Part shown: positions 6,139 through 51,358 of the stretch, piece after piece | How the letters are laid out: each line of letters starts with the position of its first letter | How positions within the stretch are numbered: the stretch's first letter is position 1 | From: Candidatus Aldehydirespiratoraceae bacterium | GTDB taxonomy: Bacteria > Actinomycetota > Acidimicrobiia > Acidimicrobiales > Aldehydirespiratoraceae | Assembly: GCA_965249055.1 (NCBI GenBank) | Contig: CBDFKX010000002.1 | Span: 1,481,835 to 1,545,834 of the forward strand | DNA length: 64,000 nucleotides | Reading direction: 5' to 3' | Notes under the pieces: model-generated | The model's database searches: none | Told to the model about the DNA's origin: nothing | What the model saw: only the letters and a program-made list of their open reading frames with translations | Translations under genes and position numbers: made by a program

Positions 6139-6446
6139 CGACTTGCGGTTGCCGGGCGATGAAGCCCAAGACGTGCTCCCAGAGCCTTCGGCCACCTTCA
6201 AGACAATAGTGGATCAGTCGATCCGACACGGTGCCTCGGCACCGCTGCCCGATCCTGTGTTGGTCGCTGGTCGGATCAAGCCGCGCCATCATTCCCGTCC
6301 AGGTCGCCTGGTGATCGCTGCTGTCACACCCCTGCTGTGTGCTTGTGGTGTGGACTCTCCAGGAATTGATCGGAAGGCGCGAGGGGTGCAATTGCGTCTT
6401 GGTGATGGGCAGAGGGTGCGCGCCCGGGCCGACCGCAGCGGGCAGA

Positions 6447-7543
6447 CTGAGGGCGTGACCGTTGGCTCCGCGATCTCGCTCTTCTCCGGCGCCGGGGGTC
6501 TCGACTTGGGGATCGAGTCGGCGGGGTTCGCCGCACTGGCCGCGGTGGAATGGGACGATGATGCCTGCGATACCTTGGAGAAGAACGCCCCGATCTACTT
6601 TCAGAGTCTCCGCGAGGTGGTTCGGGCCGACCTCTACCCGCTTGCCACCGGCGCAGGTGAGGGTCTGACCACGCGGGACATCCTCCGTGCGGCAGGCCTG
6701 TCGAGCCGGGAGAGGCCTGATCTGCTCGTGGGTGGGCCACCTTGCGTTGCATTCTCCAAGTCAGGCTTCTGGCTCGACTGGAAGCGTGACGGCGTCGACC
6801 CCGCAGCGAGTCTGCTGCAGGCCTATACCCGTGTGCTTGCCGAGGCAAGGCCCCGCTACTTCATTTTTGAGAACGTGTACGCGCTGACCTTCAACAACAA
6901 GGCGAGCAAGCCGGCGTTCACCCGATTGCTGGCGGAGATCGAGGCGGCGGGATACCGGTTTTGGTGGCAAGTGTTGAACACGGCCGACTACGGAGTGCCC
7001 CAGGCCCGTCCTCGTTTGTGTGTCGTGGGGTGTCGCAAGAGAGACACACTGCCTGATCCGCCGGATCCGACTCACCACGGACCATGGGAACGACGAACTA
7101 CGACCGGTGGGCCGCTGCCCCACGTCACGGCTGGCGAGGCGCTCACCGGGTTGATCACCGACCCCGAGCCCCAGGAGGTGATGCGAGGGCGTTGGAGCCA
7201 TCTCCTGCCTGAGGTCCCGCCTGGTGACAACTACCTTTATTTCACGGAGAAGCGTGGTCATCCAGCGCCGATCTTCGAGTGGCGGTCGCGGTATTGGTCG
7301 TTCCTGTTGAAGCTCGATCCAGACAGGCCGTCACCGACGATCCAGGCTCAGCCTGGTCCCAACGTCGGTCCGTTCCACTGGGACAACCGTCGCCTTCGTG
7401 TCCCGGAGCTTCGTAGGCTCTTCACGTTCCCGGACGACTTCGCGTTCGTCGGCAAGCGAGCATCAGTGCAGGCTCAGATCGGGAACTCGGTGCCTCCGCT
7501 ATTCTCGGAGCAGGTCGCTCGAGTCGTTGCGGCTGAGTGCTAG
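6447..7543 (+). CDS. second DNA (cytosine-5)-methyltransferase
   Basis: ISLFSGAGGLDLGIE, GGPPCVAFSKSG, FENV, QARPR, QIGNSVPP. The track start at 6128 overlaps vsr. GTG candidates at about 6385-6447 are more plausible. Confidence 0.85.
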
Positions 7544-41097: not shown

Positions 41098-42608
41098 CGC
41101 GGCATCAGGCCCGTCAACCCAACGTCTTGTGGTTGATGTGCGACGAGTTGCGGCCCGACGGCGTGGGTTGCTATGGCAACAAGTGGGGGGTTGTCGATAC
41201 ACCAAACCTTGATTCTTTGGCTGAGACCGGTACCCGTTTTGATCGTTTCTTTGTGAACTCTCCGATTTGTGTGTCGTCGCGCACGGCTTACCTGACAGGA
41301 CGTCGCCCCGCGGTTACGGGCGCGTACGGCAACGAAGCTTCGTATCGCTGGTTCCCACCCGAGACCTATACACCGCAACAACAAGAGACTCCCGAGACAT
41401 TTGTGGAGATGCTGGCTGATGCTGGCTACGTCACGCGCAACCTTGGGAAACAGCATCTCAACAGATTGCTTGAGCCATTCGAAACGTCTGACACCAGTAA
41501 CGCGGATCAGTGGCGTCTCATGCAAGCAGTCTCTCAGGTTGGAGTCGATATCCAGCGCAACGGGGTCGGCTCTGCGATCGGAGGTGTCTGGCCCACCGGT
41601 CACGAATATCCCCACGACGCGCTGGCAGATCAGGCGGGGGCGTGGTTTGCCGAGGCGCCGACGGACAAGCCGTGGTTGCTGCGTGTTTCGTTCTTGCAAC
41701 CGCACACCCCAGTTGTGGTTCCTGAACCGTTCGCGAGCCGTTTCGTTGACCAGGACTGGACCACACCCAGAGATATCCGCGCTTCGGTCAGCGCCTTTGA
41801 ACAGAACTTCGGTGACGTCACTAGGCCAAGCGATGTCGATGATGAGTGGATCAGCTTGGCGAGAGCCCGCTACTACGGGTTGACAGCATGGCTCGACCAC
41901 CAGATTGGGCAGGTCTTGTCCGCGCGCGAAGAGTCTGGACAGCGTGACTCGACCGTCGTGGTGTTCTGCTCAGACCACGGAGCCGGGTTGGGTGAAAGGG
42001 GCAACTGGGCCAAGCATGTTTTTGCTCCCCAAGTTCAGGGTTCGCCGCTGATCGTGGCGGGGGCAGGTATAGACCAGGGCGTGCTGCGCAACGACCTCTG
42101 TGAAGCAGTTGACTTTGCTCCAACAATCCTCGCGCTCGCCGGGGTGGAGCCGACGGCTGCTGTTGACGGCCGTGACCTATTCGCGTCAAACAGCGGGGGA
42201 CCGGCATTCGGCGCAATCGGATACGGGCTTCGAGAATGTTTGGCGCAACCAATGACACGTAACGGACAGTGGCCCGACGGCCGGGGTTGGCCGCAACGTT
42301 TTTGTGTGCGTGATGATCGCTACCGACTTGATCGCTCGACTCGAATGGACGGGCATGTCATTGACGCTGAGGACACGGATGCGGATATCTTCTTGGCCGA
42401 TTCGCAAACGGACCCCGATGAGATCTGCAACCTGGCCGACGATGGGGCCAATGCTGAGGTACGTGATCGGTTACTTTCGCTGCTTGAGAGCCACATTGTC
42501 AGAGCAGCCGTTCCTGAACTCGATGACTTCTACCAAGCTTGGCCGTCGATCATTGAGGAGATAATCGCTGAGAGGCTGGGACCTAAGAGTTCGGGAGAAG
42601 ACACTTGA
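41094..42608 (+). CDS. type I sulfatase 2 (variant C-V-S-S-R signature)
   Basis: LWLMCDELRPD, SPICVSSRTAYLTGR, CSDHGAGLGERG. ATGA-type overlap with the upstream gene. Confidence 0.8.
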   Translation: MTRHQARQPNVLWLMCDELRPDGVGCYGNKWGVVDTPNLDSLAETGTRFDRFFVNSPICVSSRTAYLTGRRPAVTGAYGNEASYRWFPPETYTPQQQETPETFVEMLADAGYVTRNLGKQHLNRLLEPFETSDTSNADQWRLMQAVSQVGVDIQRNGVGSAIGGVWPTGHEYPHDALADQAGAWFAEAPTDKPWLLRVSFLQPHTPVVVPEPFASRFVDQDWTTPRDIRASVSAFEQNFGDVTRPSDVDDEWISLARARYYGLTAWLDHQIGQVLSAREESGQRDSTVVVFCSDHGAGLGERGNWAKHVFAPQVQGSPLIVAGAGIDQGVLRNDLCEAVDFAPTILALAGVEPTAAVDGRDLFASNSGGPAFGAIGYGLRECLAQPMTRNGQWPDGRGWPQRFCVRDDRYRLDRSTRMDGHVIDAEDTDADIFLADSQTDPDEICNLADDGANAEVRDRLLSLLESHIVRAAVPELDDFYQAWPSIIEEIIAERLGPKSSGEDT

Positions 42609-44029
42609 TGGCCAACTCTTCGAGTCCCTCGAACTTGGTGCGACCCAACGTTTTGTTCATCATGACCGACCAATGGCGCTGGGATTGGCTCAGTTGTATG
42701 GGGACTGTCGGCCCGAGCACGCCACACGTTGACGCCCTAGCTGCGCGCGGCGTTCATATGACTCACCTGGTTACGGACTCTGCGATTTGCGCGCCAGCAC
42801 GGATTGCTCTGGCATCAGCGATGTCACCGCTACGTCTTGACTGTTTGACGAACAGTTCGGTCCTTCCGGCCGGTACCGAAACGTGGCACCACCGTTTCCG
42901 TGACAGCGGATACCGGGTTGGGTTGGTCGGCCAAACTGATCTGTCGAAACCGACCCGCAACATAGGGTTGAAGGGCAATCGCGAGCTTGTCTATGAATGG
43001 GGTTTCAGCGACGGGCTCGAGGTGGAGGGCAAGATGCATGCCGCGGCTGGTGGAGAGGGATATCCACTGGGACCGTACGGCGCGTTCCTTGCTTCACGAG
43101 GACTATTCGAGGCATTTCACCACGATTACAACGCCCGCAACATCCCCATGTACAAGGCCATGTTCAGTAACGGGCATTACGACGACCCGGACTGGTATCG
43201 GGATTCGGTGCTTCCCGCGGATGCATTTGCAGACACCTGGATCGGTGAACGCGCGGTGGACTGGCTTGCTACGGCGGGAGACGGCCCGTGGAATCTGATG
43301 GTGAGTTTCGCTGGACCCCATGATCCCTTCGATCCACCGACCGTCTGGGCCGACATGTTCCGACATGCCGACATGGCCGATCCGGTTCTCAACGCCAACG
43401 ACAACAAACCGCTTTACCTCACGACTTCGGCTTGGGGATTTGATGCTGCCCACATAGCGGAGATTCGGCGTCAATACAGCGCCTCGTGTGCCGCCATTGA
43501 TCACGAGGTTGGCCGCATGGTGGCCGTGCTTGAGGACCGCGGGCTTGTTGCTGAGACGATTGTGGTCTTCACCTCAGATCACGGGGAGATGCTCGGCGAT
43601 CATCACCGGTTCCAAAAGCATGTCGCGTATGAGCCCTCGGTGCGGGTTCCTTTTGTGGCTGCCGGTCCTGGTATTGCCCAAGGAAGCAGTGAAGCGCTGG
43701 CGCAGCTCAGCGATGTGGGGCCGACCCTTTGTGAACTCGCTGGTCTTGAACCCTGGCGCGGTGTTGATGGAATGTCGTTTGCCTCGACTCTGACCTCTCC
43801 CACGGTTCCGCATCGTGATGCTGTCGTCTGTGTTGAACCGCATTACCGCATGGTTCGAACCCAAGACCGCAAATTCATCTGGAACCGCAACGACATCGAG
43901 GAGGTCTACGATCTCGGCGGCGACCCCGGTGAGTGTGAAAATCTGCGTGGGACTGCGCCCGAACACGAACTACTCGACCTCCTGATTGAGCACACCGGAC
44001 CCTTGCCCGAAGGCCCTAGTCTGTTGTGA
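42605..44029 (+). CDS. type I sulfatase 3
   Basis: LFIMTDQWRWD, SAICAPARIAL, TSDHGEMLGDHH. Overlaps the upstream gene. Confidence 0.8.
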   Translation: MMANSSSPSNLVRPNVLFIMTDQWRWDWLSCMGTVGPSTPHVDALAARGVHMTHLVTDSAICAPARIALASAMSPLRLDCLTNSSVLPAGTETWHHRFRDSGYRVGLVGQTDLSKPTRNIGLKGNRELVYEWGFSDGLEVEGKMHAAAGGEGYPLGPYGAFLASRGLFEAFHHDYNARNIPMYKAMFSNGHYDDPDWYRDSVLPADAFADTWIGERAVDWLATAGDGPWNLMVSFAGPHDPFDPPTVWADMFRHADMADPVLNANDNKPLYLTTSAWGFDAAHIAEIRRQYSASCAAIDHEVGRMVAVLEDRGLVAETIVVFTSDHGEMLGDHHRFQKHVAYEPSVRVPFVAAGPGIAQGSSEALAQLSDVGPTLCELAGLEPWRGVDGMSFASTLTSPTVPHRDAVVCVEPHYRMVRTQDRKFIWNRNDIEEVYDLGGDPGECENLRGTAPEHELLDLLIEHTGPLPEGPSLL

Positions 44030-44953: not shown

Positions 44954-45727
44954 TTGACTGACCAGCCGACTTCTCCAACGAACAGGCAACCTAGCGACGA
45001 GCGCTACATGCACGGGTACCACGAGGTGATCGTGGGGTCGTACACTCGCCATACCGCGGAGACGTGCGCGGGCTTTCTGCTGCCTGGCCTGCAACCGGAC
45101 ACAGTGCTACTCGATTTGGGTTGTGGCCCCGGCACGATCACTGCCGGTCTGGCTCGCCGGGTCGGGCGCGCGGTCGGATTAGATGCATCCGCGGAGATGG
45201 TCGACGCTGCGCAAAACCACGCCGCAGACTGCGGGATCGACAATGCGACTTTTGAGGTCGGTTCGGCTTACGACCTGCCATTCAGCGATGACAGCTTCGA
45301 CGTGGTGTACGCCCATCAGGTGTTCCAGCATCTGTCGCAACCCGTCGAGGCACTGCGGGAAGTCCGCCGAATCCTGAAACCCGGAGGGATAGTGGCAATT
45401 CGTGACTCCGATTACGAAACGATGATCCACGCTCCAGTGACCGAGGCCATCGTTCGTTGGCGAGAGCTCTATCACCAGGTGTCCAGGGCCAACGGCGGCG
45501 AACCGAACGCTGGGCGGCATTTGTTGTCCTGGGCGACCGAGGCCGGATTTGTTGAGCCCGAAGTCACCACCGACACGGTCACGCATGCGACTCTCGAAGG
45601 GCGCACCGCTTGGGGCGAGATGTGGGCGGTGCGCGTAGTAGACAGCGACTTTGCCCGTCACGCGGTAGACCACGGGCTCTCCACCCGAGCCGAACTGCAG
45701 CAAATATCGGACTCCTTTCGCCACTGA
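44954..45727 (+). CDS. class I SAM-dependent methyltransferase (see finding: TGA at an expected Trp, ORF continues to 45796)
   Basis: VLLDLGCGPGTIT, FDVVYAHQVFQHL, LKPGGIVAI. Confidence 0.75.
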   Translation: MTDQPTSPTNRQPSDERYMHGYHEVIVGSYTRHTAETCAGFLLPGLQPDTVLLDLGCGPGTITAGLARRVGRAVGLDASAEMVDAAQNHAADCGIDNATFEVGSAYDLPFSDDSFDVVYAHQVFQHLSQPVEALREVRRILKPGGIVAIRDSDYETMIHAPVTEAIVRWRELYHQVSRANGGEPNAGRHLLSWATEAGFVEPEVTTDTVTHATLEGRTAWGEMWAVRVVDSDFARHAVDHGLSTRAELQQISDSFRH

Positions 45728-46912: not shown

Positions 46913-46989
46913 CGGAGCGGCCAAGACTCGATGTCTCCGAACCTCTAGCATGAGTGCCGGCTGGGACGTACCAAAGACCGGGAGGTCGC

Positions 46990-48009
46990 ATGAACCCTCG
47001 AAGAGACATGGTCATCGGTGCCATTGCCTGCATCGTCATCTTCTTCTTCTTTGTCAGCATCGATTTGTACGAGACAGTCTCGGACTTCACGAGTGAACAC
47101 GAGGGCTGGCAACTCGTTGAGATCCTGGCGGCTGTGCCTACGCTCGCCCTGGTCACCTCCTGGTTCGCCGTGCGGCGCTGGCTGGAAGTAGCCCACCTCA
47201 ACGACAGGCTGGCTCATACCGTCGGACAACTCAAAGAAGCGATTAATGAACGCCAGGCCATGGAGGAACAGATCGGCGAGGCTTACAAAATGGCGGCGAT
47301 GGGCGCGCTATCTGGAGGGCTCACCCGGGAACTCAACAATGTGATGCAGCCGATCGTGACCTTGGCGCAACTGGGAGTCGACCAAATCGACCAAAGCGAG
47401 GCGCAACGGGAGAATATGGGTCGCATACTCTTGGCGGCGGAGCGTGGTTGCAAGATTCTCGAGAGTTCATTGGCTGACCCTGTTGGCGGATTCGGTGACG
47501 CAGAAGAGATCATCCCGTCGCAGGGGTTGTCGAGTGTGATTGCCCAGGTAGGAAAGTCGGTCGGAAACGATGTGACGATTGTGTCCCGCTTCAGCGACGA
47601 GGGTGGCGTGATCTCAGTGAACCGTGAAGAATTCGACTCGGTGTTTACGAGTTTGCTGACCAACGCGGCACAGGCCATGAAGCGTGGGGGCGAGATCACG
47701 GTGGGACTCTCGACCCGCACACTTGACGAGGCCCAGGCGAGTGTGCAGGGAGTTTCAGCTGGCAGCTACTTCAGTGTCACTGTGGCCGACCAAGGCATTG
47801 GCATGACCGATGATGTGCGAACCCAAGTTTTTGATCCGTTCTTCACAACCAAATCGGCCGACGGATGCGCCGGTCTGGGTCTCACCATCGCCTATGAACA
47901 GGTTCACGGATGGTCGGGCAGGATCACTGCGGAATCGTCTTATGGTGAGGGTTCGACGTTCGAAGTTCTCATCCCCCACCACCATGCAGACGAAGCCCCA
48001 GGAGCCTGA
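46990..48009 (+). CDS. membrane histidine-kinase-like protein with Arg in place of the H-box histidine
   Basis: Two N-terminal TM segments. DHp-like ...MGALSGGLTRELNNVMQPI (expected AHELNNP). Intact N, G1 (DQGIGM), F (FDPFFTTK) and G2 (GLGLTIA) boxes. Confidence 0.7.
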   Translation: MNPRRDMVIGAIACIVIFFFFVSIDLYETVSDFTSEHEGWQLVEILAAVPTLALVTSWFAVRRWLEVAHLNDRLAHTVGQLKEAINERQAMEEQIGEAYKMAAMGALSGGLTRELNNVMQPIVTLAQLGVDQIDQSEAQRENMGRILLAAERGCKILESSLADPVGGFGDAEEIIPSQGLSSVIAQVGKSVGNDVTIVSRFSDEGGVISVNREEFDSVFTSLLTNAAQAMKRGGEITVGLSTRTLDEAQASVQGVSAGSYFSVTVADQGIGMTDDVRTQVFDPFFTTKSADGCAGLGLTIAYEQVHGWSGRITAESSYGEGSTFEVLIPHHHADEAPGA

Positions 48010-48012
48010 ATA

Positions 48013-48384
48013 ATGGCGACCGTGTTGGTGGTTGACGACGACCCGGGGGTGCGCTTTGCGCTGACGCGGCTTTTGGATGCTTGTGGTGACCATGAGGTAA
48101 TCGAAGCCGACAGCTGCGAAGCAGCGCTGGAGCTAATGGCTTCCCGCAAGCCGGACCTGGTTTTGACAGAGTCCGTGATGCCGACAATGACCGCGATCGA
48201 GTACATAAAGGCGTTGCGCTGGGCCTGCCCTCGCGCCGGGATCGTGGCTTTGTCTGCGGGTGGTATGCACCAAAGCCCAGAGTTCGCTACCGGCCTTGCC
48301 AGCACCGCAGGAGCCGACGAAGTCCTGCGCAAACCTGTCAAAAACGAACCCCTGCTAGCCGCCGTCAACAAAGTCCTCCGCTGA
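48013..48384 (+). CDS. stand-alone receiver domain with Glu at the phospho-acceptor position
   Basis: VLVVDDDPG..., PDLVLTESVMP (expected DLVLLDxxMP), VALSAG, LRKPV. Confidence 0.75.
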   Translation: MATVLVVDDDPGVRFALTRLLDACGDHEVIEADSCEAALELMASRKPDLVLTESVMPTMTAIEYIKALRWACPRAGIVALSAGGMHQSPEFATGLASTAGADEVLRKPVKNEPLLAAVNKVLR

Positions 48385-50695: not shown

Positions 50696-51358
50696 CTAGG
50701 GGCTAGGTGTGGAGTTGGAGTCGGGAGGATGGGTGACTTTAAGGGACAAGAAGCGGAGTGGGAGCTCGATCAGCGCGGTGGGACCGTGTGTCACCTCACC
50801 CCGAAATTGCATGGAGTCGCCTGCGGTGAGCACGTACCGCTTGGTGCCGTAGCCGTACTCGACGCAGCCCTCAAGGATGTATATGAACTCCACGCCACCG
50901 TGTTGGAACAGCGGGAAAACCTCGTTGGGTTCGGTGATTGTGACGTACAGCGATTCGATCTCACGGGTTGGACCTCGCAGCGATCCGAGATCGTGATACA
51001 CCCTGCCGGGTCCAGCACCTTCGTGAATGATCTCCATCCCTTGTCCAGCGGGGACGATCACTGCATCGCGTTCTTCGTCCAGCCCTCGAAAAAAGGCTGT
51101 AAAGGGAACCTCGGCCGCGTCAGCCAAGCTGATGAGTGTGCTGAAACTTGGTGAGGTCTGCCCATGCTCGACTTTGGAGAGCATCCCGATTGATAGTCCC
51201 GCGGCGTCTGCGAATTGCTCCATGGTCAAGCCCATGCCCACCCGGAGTTCGCGCACTCGCCGACCAACGCTCTCGCACACCTCATCGGTTGTCAGTCGGC
51301 CTGTTCGGCTGTCGCTGACGGTCCGCGGCGCTTCTGGGTCGCTTCCTTCAGGTGGCAT
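50696..51358 (-). CDS. XRE-family HTH regulator with a C-terminal cupin domain
   Basis: VGRRVRELRVGMGLTMEQFADAAGLSIGMLSKVEHG, followed by a cupin region (FIYILEGCVEY...GDSMQF). Lies 17 nt downstream of the gmaS-like gene. Confidence 0.75.
   Translation of the reverse strand: MPPEGSDPEAPRTVSDSRTGRLTTDEVCESVGRRVRELRVGMGLTMEQFADAAGLSIGMLSKVEHGQTSPSFSTLISLADAAEVPFTAFFRGLDEERDAVIVPAGQGMEIIHEGAGPGRVYHDLGSLRGPTREIESLYVTITEPNEVFPLFQHGGVEFIYILEGCVEYGYGTKRYVLTAGDSMQFRGEVTHGPTALIELPLRFLSLKVTHPPDSNSTPSP

What the first reader, a model, noticed from the sequence alone, without database searches (positions are those of the whole stretch)
46990..48384. Two-component-like pair in which both phospho-acceptor residues are replaced (His to Arg, Asp to Glu)
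The kinase-like protein keeps membrane anchors, a DHp-like helix and complete N/G1/F/G2 ATP-binding boxes. However, the H-box reads GGLT-R-ELNNVMQP (CGG at 47326-47328) where A-H-E-L-N-x-P is expected.

The receiver gene starts 3 nt downstream. It keeps the acidic pocket (VDDD), the Ser/Thr (ALSAG) and the Lys (RKP). It has Glu (GAG 48169-48171) in DLVLT-E-SVMP where the phosphorylatable Asp belongs. D-to-E substitutions are classical phosphomimetics.

Co-loss in both partners suggests a phosphorylation-independent signalling pair. ATP binding or protein-protein interaction may be retained. Random decay of one gene looks less likely.
Basis: partly seen in the sequence, partly recalled or inferred. 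Interest (0 to 1): 0.55.

Follow-up and report, generated by a model that had tools for sequence, protein, structure and literature searches.

The report
Kinase-regulator pair lacking both phosphorylation sites
A membrane sensor kinase and its neighbouring regulator have both swapped the residue that normally carries the phosphate (His to Arg, Asp to Glu), and a whole bacterial lineage has kept them that way under selection, so the pair probably signals without passing a phosphate.

Summary
Arg (CGG 47326-47328) sits in the phospho-His column of a CckA/VirA-type kinase (46990-48009). Glu (GAG 48169-48171) sits in the phospho-Asp column of the receiver gene that starts 3 nt downstream (48013-48384).

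This is not local decay:
- All 25 closest kinase clusters (49-93% identity, Acidimicrobiia MAGs) carry Arg, and 26 receiver clusters carry Glu.
- More distant members of the same two-gene family (Gemmatimonadota and Gammaproteobacteria MAGs) carry His and Asp.
- In 13 loci where both genes could be read, 7 are Arg/Glu, 6 are His/Asp and none is mixed.
- The kinase tree needs one His-to-Arg change.
- dN/dS inside the Arg/Glu clade is 0.13-0.19.
- Both codons vary synonymously.
- The ATP-binding boxes and the other four receiver active-site residues stay invariant.

The best reading is a selected pseudo-kinase/pseudo-receiver pair that signals by binding or allostery and still binds nucleotide.

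One control limits this. His-to-Arg recurs in at least 36 other kinase lineages, and their receivers all keep Asp. The double change is therefore peculiar to this family and rests on about one evolutionary event. Biochemistry is untested.

The parts
46990..48009 (+). Pseudo-histidine kinase gene (339 aa): two membrane helices, a long linker helix running into DHp helix 1, then the HATPase_c catalytic domain.
   Evidence: ORF. HATPase_c 1e-16. VirA-like, CckA and AtoS NCBIfam matches cover residues 84-347 of the 351-aa form. The start is set by homologues. In the AF2 model, helix 42-131, a turn and helix 137-162 precede an alpha/beta domain at 172-329.
46980..46985 (+). GGGAGG ribosome-binding site, 4 nt before the ATG at 46990.
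   Evidence: Read directly from the sequence.
47008..47064 (+). Membrane helix 1 (residues 7-25).
   Evidence: Kyte-Doolittle 19-residue window above 2.
47113..47172 (+). Membrane helix 2 (residues 42-61). The loop between the two helices is only about 16 residues.
   Evidence: Hydropathy. The segment is conserved across the family.
47314..47352 (+). H-box GGLT-R-ELNNVMQP. Arg113 (CGG 47326-47328) stands in place of the phospho-His. The E-x-x-N motif after it is kept.
   Evidence: Aligned to the His of CckA and LvrB. Arg is present in 26 of 26 clade rows and His in 41 of 41 other family rows.
47653..47676 (+). N box (LLTNAAQA, Asn225).
   Evidence: Invariant in both clades.
47788..47805 (+). 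G1 box (DQGIGM).
   Evidence: D267, G269 and G271 are invariant. D and G are also found in 711 of 711 carriers in the census.
47830..47853 (+). F box (FDPFFTTK).
   Evidence: Invariant or nearly so.
47872..47883 (+). G2 box (GLGL).
   Evidence: Invariant.
48013..48384 (+). Stand-alone pseudo-receiver gene (123 aa) with no output domain.
   Evidence: Response_reg 1.5e-17. The AF2 model has mean pLDDT 91.6 and a (beta-alpha)5 order.
48034..48042 (+). Acidic pocket, Asp8-Asp9-Asp10.
   Evidence: Kept in all Glu-type receivers (EDD in one).
48169..48171 (+). Glu53 (GAG) at the end of strand beta-3, in place of the phospho-Asp.
   Evidence: Alignment to CheY-like structures. Beta-3 spans residues 49-53 in the model. 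Glu in 26 clusters and Asp in 65 clusters of the family.
48253..48279 (+). Conserved Ser81, followed by the family-specific GGMHQxP loop between beta-4 and alpha-4.
   Evidence: Ser or Thr in all members. The GGMHQ motif is shared by Glu-type and Asp-type members. This loop has lower pLDDT.
48331..48333 (+). Conserved Lys107 (RKP).
   Evidence: Invariant.

Best explanation
This is a two-gene sensor module derived from an ordinary CckA/VirA-type two-component system. On one ancestral branch the kinase changed its phospho-His to Arg and the cognate single-domain receiver changed its phospho-Asp to Glu. An Acidimicrobiia lineage has since kept both states by selection.

Shown here:
- The columns are the acceptor columns.
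- The two changes go together in every locus read.
- Both genes are under purifying selection.
- The ATP-binding boxes, the E-x-x-N motif next to the Arg, and the receiver's DD, S and K residues are all retained.

Inferred:
- His-to-Asp phosphotransfer is impossible. The membrane sensor therefore controls the receiver by direct binding or allosteric coupling, that is, signal-dependent capture or release of the receiver, or stabilisation of one conformer.
- The Glu-type receiver sits in a fixed, phosphomimic-like state and acts on an unknown target by protein contact.
- The catalytic domain still binds nucleotide as a conformational co-factor.

A more specific guess is that Arg113 and Glu53 meet at the former phosphotransfer site as an ion pair, and that the ATP gamma-phosphate may compete for the Arg.
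For: - Column assignment.
- Clade-wide retention: 25 kinase clusters (94 member sequences) with Arg, and 26 receiver clusters with Glu against 65 with Asp, with no third residue.
- Pairing: 7 Arg/Glu loci (window, L088, L089, L093, L005, L001, L097) and 6 His/Asp loci (L003, L090, L092, L004, L091, L095), none mixed.
- The kinase tree needs one change. The Arg clade is nested among His clades when rooted by CckA-like outgroups (support 100 for the 25-row core, 86 with P0026 included).
- dN/dS is 0.13-0.16 for the kinase and 0.16-0.19 for the receiver in pairs with dS below 1. Arg is written CGG, CGA or CGC, and Glu is written GAG or GAA.
- N225, D267, G269, G271, F281, F284 and G295-L-G-L are invariant, and the E and N of the E-x-x-N motif are kept.
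- The receiver quintet is DD-E-S-K throughout.
- The gene gap is 2-9 nt in all loci, while the neighbouring genes differ, so the pair is a self-contained module.
- The genome holds one copy and no close paralogue.
- Complex prediction gave weak support. The score was 0.57 against a best control of 0.00. That mark was reached by 58 of 80 solved complexes and 2 of 110 mismatched pairs. At 0.60 or under it was reached by only 7 of the 80 solved complexes and by both mismatches that passed. The runs agree in at least 73% of contacts and the partner's pLDDT is at least 81. Kinase-receiver complexes have been solved, so the pass may reflect likeness only.
- Precedent: His-less DesK H188Q and EnvZ H243Q still signal to their regulators (PMC12033271). 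Glu is the commonest replacement in pseudo-receivers and can mimic phosphorylation (PMC12632262).
Against: - No biochemistry exists. Binding, nucleotide binding and lack of phosphorylation are all inferred.
- The co-change is about one event, so coupling cannot be tested statistically.
- In a scan of metagenomes, 57 other kinase ORFs (36 clusters) have Arg in the same H-box. Their 25 fused receivers all keep Asp, and 9 of 11 adjacent receivers keep Asp, the other 2 (one family) having Gly. Arg therefore does not need a Glu partner, and the ion-pair idea is not a general rule.
- No output or target of the receiver is identifiable, and gene neighbourhoods are not conserved.
- Two Glu-type receiver clusters (P0143, P0150) are frameshifted or truncated. 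This could be assembly error or occasional decay.
- The receiver tree is too short to confirm a single origin.
Confidence: 0.6

Rival explanations
1. The module works inside a larger phosphorylation network. The Arg-type kinase keeps a phosphatase, scaffold or heterodimer role towards a different, canonical regulator or kinase. The Glu-type receiver is a constitutive regulator of the kinase, with reversed information flow as in DivL-DivK.
For: - The E-x-x-N motif needed for HisKA phosphatase activity is kept (motif as cited in PMC12963549), and His is not essential for that activity (PMC12632262).
- The genome has about 8 other receivers and several other kinases.
- Other Arg-type kinases keep Asp receivers, which fits a role in phospho-networks.
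- DivL is a precedent for a His-less kinase that reads a receiver (PMC4211667).
Against: - No paralogue at E 1e-10 or better exists in the genome for heterodimer formation.
- The tight 3-nt operon, the matching history of the two genes and the simultaneous change in both point to the neighbour as the working partner.
Confidence: 0.2
2. The pair is still a phosphorelay with unusual chemistry. The kinase would phosphorylate Arg113 (a phosphoramidate, like phospho-His) or another residue, and pass the phosphate to Glu53 or to a Ser/Thr. Alternatively, Arg113 acts as an arginine finger that makes the core an ATPase.
For: - The complete ATP-binding and Mg-binding residues, the acidic residue next to the Arg, and the receiver's metal pocket, Ser and Lys have all been kept over dS above 1.
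- His-to-Arg recurs in 36 other clusters, several with intact G1, F and G2 boxes.
Against: - I know of no GHKL-fold histidine kinase that phosphorylates Arg.
- From memory, CheY D57E is not phosphorylated.
- Retention of the boxes is equally explained by nucleotide binding without transfer.
- I scanned for Arg only, so enrichment of Arg over other replacements is not shown.
Confidence: 0.07
3. Both genes are relics of a dead two-component system drifting towards loss.
For: - Both acceptor residues are gone.
- Two receiver variants are frameshifted.
- The family is rare: own genus only among 401 genomes of the class.
Against: - dN/dS is 0.13-0.19.
- Reading frames are intact in all 7 loci read and in 25 kinase clusters.
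- There are synonymous changes at both key codons.
- The H-box and ATP boxes are invariant.
Confidence: 0.03

Closest known systems
CckA / VirA / AtoS-type (HPK4-like) histidine kinases with their receivers
   Same: - Nearest by sequence (NCBIfam VirA-like 1e-43, CckA 1e-34; PDB 5idj at 5e-17).
- Same H-box context (GG-x-A/T-x-E/D-x-N-N).
- Same catalytic-domain boxes.
- Same operon layout with a receiver.
   Different: - Arg replaces the phospho-His, and Glu replaces the phospho-Asp in the partner.
- There are no PAS domains and no fused receiver.
- The input is a minimal two-helix membrane segment.
DivL of Caulobacter (pseudo-histidine kinase)
   Same: A conserved His-less kinase (Tyr) whose kinase core is used to bind a single-domain receiver rather than to phosphorylate it (PMC4211667, PMC9430884).
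   Different: - DivL reads phosphorylated DivK, which keeps its Asp and is phosphorylated by other kinases.
- It has PAS domains.
- It is not an operonic pair in which both sites have changed.
PsmA of Streptomyces (histidine pseudokinase)
   Same: An actinobacterial kinase-like protein without the H-box His. Its function does not depend on phosphorelay (PMC12963549).
   Different: - In PsmA the residue at the His position varies (E, D, Q, V, Y).
- Its ATP motifs and the E-x-x-N motif are lost.
- Its fused receiver keeps Asp.
- Here Arg is invariant and the ATP boxes are intact.
Allosteric coupling activation by His-less kinases (DesK H188Q, EnvZ H243Q)
   Same: A kinase without its His still transmits its signal to the cognate regulator by contact (PMC12033271). 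This is the mechanism proposed here.
   Different: - Those are engineered mutants of working systems whose regulators keep Asp.
- Here the state is natural, fixed and present in both partners.
Pseudo-receivers (aspartate-less receivers) with Glu: plant PRRs, fungal Rim15, many bacterial ones
   Same: Glu is the commonest replacement of the Asp, and it is thought to mimic phosphorylation (PMC12632262, PMC4395418).
   Different: [quoted passage not shown]
- This one has an obvious cognate sensor that is itself a pseudo-kinase.
- It keeps all four other active-site residues.

Membership tests
Two-component histidine kinase (HisKA-type DHp plus HATPase_c) | Phospho-accepting His in the H-box of DHp helix 1 | tested here: not met
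   Arg113 aligns to the His of CckA and LvrB and to the His of 41 family members. No other His is conserved in the clade's DHp.
Two-component histidine kinase (HisKA-type DHp plus HATPase_c) | Catalytic ATP-binding domain with N, G1, F and G2 boxes | tested here: met
   PF02518 scores 1e-16. The boxes are invariant. The model of residues 172-329 has pLDDT of about 84-92.
Two-component histidine kinase (HisKA-type DHp plus HATPase_c) | Helical hairpin (DHp) before the catalytic domain | tested here: met
   The model has helix 42-131, a turn and helix 137-162, with Arg113 inside helix 1. Pfam HisKA itself gives no hit, and this is also true of the His-type family members.
Two-component histidine kinase (HisKA-type DHp plus HATPase_c) | Autophosphorylation and phosphotransfer activity | not testable with these tools
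   Needs purified protein and labelled ATP.
Response regulator receiver (PF00072) | (beta-alpha)5 fold | tested here: met
   PF00072 scores 1.5e-17. The AF2 model has mean pLDDT 91.6 with five strands alternating with five helices.
Response regulator receiver (PF00072) | Phospho-accepting Asp at the end of beta-3 | tested here: not met
   Glu53 occupies this position.
Response regulator receiver (PF00072) | Acidic pair (DD), Ser/Thr and Lys of the active site | tested here: met
   D9, D10, S81 and K107 are kept in all Glu-type members.
Pseudo-receiver / aspartate-less receiver | Recognised as a receiver but lacking at least one of the five catalytic residues | tested here: met
   Asp is replaced by Glu and the other four residues are kept. 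The definition is from PMC12632262.
Pseudo-histidine kinase | Kinase architecture lacking one or more kinase functions, here the acceptor His | tested here: met
   Arg at the His column is conserved in 25 clusters. The definition is as summarised in PMC12632262.
DivL-type pseudokinase | Tyr at the His position, PAS input domains, and a partner receiver that is phosphorylated | tested here: not met
   Here the residue is Arg, there is no PAS domain, and the partner has Glu.

The most novel reading that the evidence does not exclude
Arg-type H-boxes are a functional class of kinase core and not dead enzymes. In this reading the Arg takes part in nucleotide chemistry. It would act either as an arginine finger that turns the DHp-catalytic core into an ATP-driven switch or ATPase, or as a phospho-acceptor (phospho-Arg). 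In this family the receiver has adapted to it with Glu. This would explain two things: why the full ATP and metal machinery of both proteins has been kept, and why His-to-Arg recurs in at least 36 other kinase lineages.
Probability: 0.07. Interest if true: 0.9.

Novelty: new variant of a known kind. Interest (0 to 1): 0.58.

Why it matters
How bacterial pseudo-receivers are switched on and off is described as a mystery in PMC12632262, and almost all studied examples are orphans with no known input. This module supplies a pseudo-receiver with an obvious cognate sensor that is itself a pseudo-kinase. Close His/Asp relatives are available as natural controls.

That makes three questions directly testable with two small proteins and four point mutants:
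- Can a kinase-regulator pair signal by contact alone, that is, by the allosteric coupling proposed from engineered DesK and EnvZ mutants?
- What is the retained ATP site for?
- Do the Arg and the Glu meet?

The side finding that His-to-Arg recurs in many CckA-type kinases suggests an overlooked class worth a systematic survey.

Tried and rejected
- The genome-contig scan with the family alignment returned only distant CckA-like kinases at 26-34% identity. It was used later only as a His-type control.
- The class-level genome search found the family only in the window's own genus (3 of 401 genomes), so it added just two loci.
- Sequencing runs: no RNA holder was listed, so nothing can be said on expression and read laying was not used.
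- Pfam HisKA gives no hit. This is a trait of the whole family, including the His-type members, and is not evidence about the Arg.
- P0192, a further Glu-type receiver, lies on a 514-bp contig, so its kinase could not be read.
- The receiver tree (130 columns) leaves P0192 and P0342 unresolved. It can neither confirm nor reject a single origin of Glu.
- No compositional sign of recent transfer: GC is 0.575 and 0.61 for the two genes against 0.60 for the window.
- No clear terminator or promoter beyond chance around the pair.
- An alternative acceptor was considered and rejected. Asp48 is the usual P-D-L-V motif at the start of beta-3, and no other His is conserved in the clade's DHp.
- Sequencing error was rejected, because the same states occur in many independent assemblies.
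Full report
**The observation**

The window holds two adjacent genes on the + strand.

The kinase-like gene runs 46990-48009 and encodes 339 aa.
- The ATG at 46990 is preferred over an upstream GTG at 46954. Homologues begin at the same MNPRRD, and GGGAGG lies 4 nt upstream of it.
- Pfam finds HATPase_c (1e-16).
- NCBIfam places it nearest to the VirA-like, CckA and AtoS kinases.
- CGG at 47326-47328 encodes Arg113.

The receiver gene runs 48013-48384, encodes 123 aa and starts 3 nt after the kinase stop codon.
- Pfam finds Response_reg (1.5e-17).
- GAG at 48169-48171 encodes Glu53.

**Are these the acceptor columns?**

- A sequence search of solved structures aligns GGLT-R-ELNN to GGVA-H-DFNN of CckA (5idj) and to the H-box of LvrB.
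- The same kind of search aligns LT-E-SVMP to the LT-D and TM-D of CheY-type receivers.
- The structure models agree. Arg113 lies in the long helix (42-131) that precedes the hairpin turn and the second DHp helix. Glu53 ends strand beta-3 of a confident (beta-alpha)5 receiver model with mean pLDDT 91.6.
- The strongest evidence is internal. More distant members of the same family have His and Asp in exactly these columns.

**The family**

The kinase belongs to a compact family of 329-359-aa proteins.
- They share the same two membrane helices and a short loop of about 16 residues.
- They have a direct helical connection to the DHp and no PAS or HAMP domain.
- Each is followed, after 2-9 nt, by a stand-alone receiver that carries a family-specific GGMHQxP loop between beta-4 and alpha-4.
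- Flanking genes differ from locus to locus, so the pair is a self-contained module.

The family is rare.
- Among 401 sampled genomes of the class, only the window's own genus has it.
- In a census of 36,145 genera, close relatives appear in only a handful. At the His column, 708 of 711 carriers of related kinases have His.
- Names attached to near-identical proteins place the Arg-type members in Acidimicrobiia/Acidimicrobiaceae MAGs. His-type members fall in Gammaproteobacteria and, for the sister group's receiver, in Gemmatimonadota MAGs.

**Distribution of the two states**

| Set | Altered state | Canonical state |
|---|---|---|
| Kinase clusters (49-93% identity to the window for Arg; 44-52% for His) | Arg: 25 clusters, 94 member sequences | His: 41 clusters |
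| Receiver clusters | Glu: 26 | Asp: 65 |
| Loci with both genes read | Arg/Glu: 7 (window, L088, L089, L093, L005, L001, L097) | His/Asp: 6 (L003, L090, L092, L004, L091, L095) |

No third residue occurs at the receiver site, and no mixed locus was found.

A quick maximum-likelihood tree of the kinases was rooted with CckA-like outgroups.
- It needs a single change.
- The Arg rows form one group nested among His clades. SH-aLRT support is 100 for the 25-row core and 86 when P0026 is included.
- The sister group is His-type.

The receiver tree is too short to resolve the two deepest Glu rows, but it does not contradict one origin. Both changes therefore occurred on the same stem branch. Each needs one base change: CAC to CGC, and GAC to GAA or GAG.

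**Selection**

- Within the Arg/Glu clade, pairs with unsaturated dS give dN/dS of 0.13-0.16 for the kinase and 0.16-0.19 for the receiver.
- Arg is encoded by CGG, CGA and CGC, and Glu by GAG and GAA. The residues themselves are therefore being maintained.
- The catalytic-domain residues stay invariant in both clades. These are N225 (N box), D267, G269 and G271 (G1), F281 and F284 (F box) and G295-L-G-L (G2).
- The Glu and Asn of the E-x-x-N motif next to the acceptor are also kept.
- The receiver keeps its acidic pair, Ser and Lys in every Glu-type member.
- This differs from PsmA of Streptomyces, where the residue at the His position varies and the ATP motifs have decayed (PMC12963549).
- Clade-specific substitutions cluster in DHp helix 1 (I95, M119) and helix 2 (L157, E158 and S159, against V, K/R and N in the His clade), and at a few catalytic-domain sites. 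The helix 2 triplet includes a charge reversal.

**A control that limits the interpretation**

I scanned the metagenome collection for the DNA pattern encoding GG-x-A-R-D-F-N-N, the CckA-type H-box with Arg.
- 66 stretches matched. 57 are in frame within kinase-like ORFs, forming 36 clusters at 60% identity.
- Some are diverged, recurrent families that all carry Arg. One is a hybrid of about 701 aa, at 79-87% identity across four distinct sequences. Several full-length ones keep G1, F and G2 boxes.
- All 25 fused C-terminal receivers keep Asp. Of 11 adjacent receiver ORFs, 9 keep Asp and 2 (one family) have Gly. None has Glu.
- The same pipeline on 79 His-type kinases gave Asp in 94 of 94 receivers.

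Two conclusions follow.
- His-to-Arg is a recurrent natural state of this kinase type.
- The accompanying Asp-to-Glu change is peculiar to the window's family and is not a general consequence.

I scanned for Arg only and have no denominator. I therefore cannot say whether Arg is favoured over other replacements.

**How it most likely works**

Shown:
- The canonical acceptors are absent in both partners.
- The pair is cognate, given the tight operon and the matching history of the two genes.
- The pair is under selection.
- The nucleotide-binding and receiver-pocket residues are preserved.

Inferred:
- The sensor controls the receiver by contact and not by phosphotransfer.

Precedent exists for this inference. 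DesK H188Q and EnvZ H243Q still activate their pathways (PMC12033271). Glu at the Asp position is the commonest pseudo-receiver state and can mimic phosphorylation (PMC12632262).

I propose the following:
- The Glu-type receiver is fixed in an active-like conformer.
- The membrane sensor captures or releases it, or shifts its conformation, in response to a membrane-associated signal.
- The catalytic domain binds nucleotide as part of that switch.

The idea that Arg113 and Glu53 form an ion pair at the old phosphotransfer site is attractive, because those two positions face each other in solved kinase-receiver complexes (established knowledge). It is unproven, however, and the control above shows it is not required for Arg-type kinases in general.

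A complex prediction gave weak support.
- The score was 0.57 against a best control of 0.00.
- That mark was reached by 58 of 80 solved complexes and 2 of 110 mismatches.
- At 0.60 or under it was reached by only 7 of the 80 solved complexes and by both mismatches that passed.
- The runs agreed in at least 73% of contacts, and the partner's pLDDT was at least 81.
- Such complexes have been solved, so the pass may reflect likeness only.

The receiver's target is unknown. It has no output domain, and there is no conserved neighbour.

**Rivals**

- The kinase may keep a phosphatase or scaffold role towards other regulators. The genome has about 8 other receivers, and His is not needed for HisKA phosphatase activity (PMC12632262). 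The Glu receiver would then act as its regulator, as with DivL-DivK. The lack of any close paralogue and the simultaneous change in the neighbour make this less likely, but it is not excluded.
- Unusual chemistry is the most novel reading: phospho-Arg, acyl phosphate on Glu, or an arginine-finger ATPase. It is kept alive by the retained catalytic residues but has no direct support.
- Decay is contradicted by the selection data.
- Sequencing error is contradicted by the many independent assemblies.

**Comparison with what is known**

Pseudo-kinases (DivL, PsmA) and pseudo-receivers are each established. About 0.9% of HisKA domains lack His and 2.0% of receivers lack Asp (PMC12632262). In the papers I could search, I found no description of what is seen here: a conserved operonic pair in which both partners changed together, to one fixed residue each, with the ATP site and the receiver pocket otherwise intact. 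[quoted passage not shown] I therefore rate this a new variant of a known kind, of moderate to good interest. It offers a natural two-protein test bed for phosphorylation-independent kinase-to-regulator signalling, with His/Asp relatives as built-in controls.

Noticed in passing
L098-L163 (metagenome contigs), e.g. L102, L117, L134, L151, L163: His-to-Arg in the CckA-type H-box (GG-x-A-R-D-F-N-N) recurs in 57 kinase-like ORFs forming 36 clusters. These include diverged families that all carry Arg (one hybrid of about 701 aa at 79-87% identity). Several have intact G1, F and G2 boxes, and the fused receivers keep Asp. This may be an overlooked class of Arg-type pseudo-kinases.
   Followed up: partly
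L115:1352-2233 and L125 (reverse strand) 6368-7048: One Arg-type hybrid kinase family (its fused receiver has Asp) is followed by a second receiver gene that has Gly at the Asp site and an altered acidic pair (EH-G-T-K). This is another pseudo-receiver next to a pseudo-kinase.
   Followed up: no
P0143 (contig of 50,291 bp) and P0150 (contig of 69,925 bp): Two Glu-type receiver variants are frameshifted: after GG of the GGMHQ loop in P0143 and after residue 31 in P0150. This is either long-read assembly error or occasional decay of the receiver.
   Followed up: no
window 50696-51358 (-) and L093:4392-4934 (-): An XRE-type HTH plus cupin regulator lies convergent to the receiver, immediately after it in L093 and 2.3 kb downstream in the window. 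In the window a tautomerase-like gene and an APH-family phosphotransferase gene lie in between. This is partial synteny of unknown meaning.
   Followed up: partly
L003:5409-6173 and window 44954-45727: In the His/Asp sister locus, a class I SAM methyltransferase gene overlaps the end of the receiver gene by 4 nt. A methyltransferase of the same Pfam families lies 1.3 kb upstream of the kinase in the window. Whether the two are orthologous was not tested.
   Followed up: no
L001:6398-8836: An 812-aa gene with DruA and DDE_Tnp_1 (Tn5-like transposase) hits lies 1 kb from the deepest Arg/Glu pair and interrupts an ABC-transporter operon that is intact in L002.
   Followed up: no
window 42605-44029 (+): A 474-aa ORF has a sulfatase-like N-terminus (LFIMTDQ and C-A-P-A-R motifs, read by eye). 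It was not run against any family library.
   Followed up: no
L094 (contig name ROBB21-1_SAMN13943214) and NCBI names: The family's members come almost entirely from MAGs and metagenome contigs of a few recent studies. The Arg/Glu and His/Asp versions sit in different phyla (Acidimicrobiia, Gemmatimonadota, Gammaproteobacteria), which suggests horizontal spread of the module in a shared habitat. The habitat was not established.
   Followed up: no
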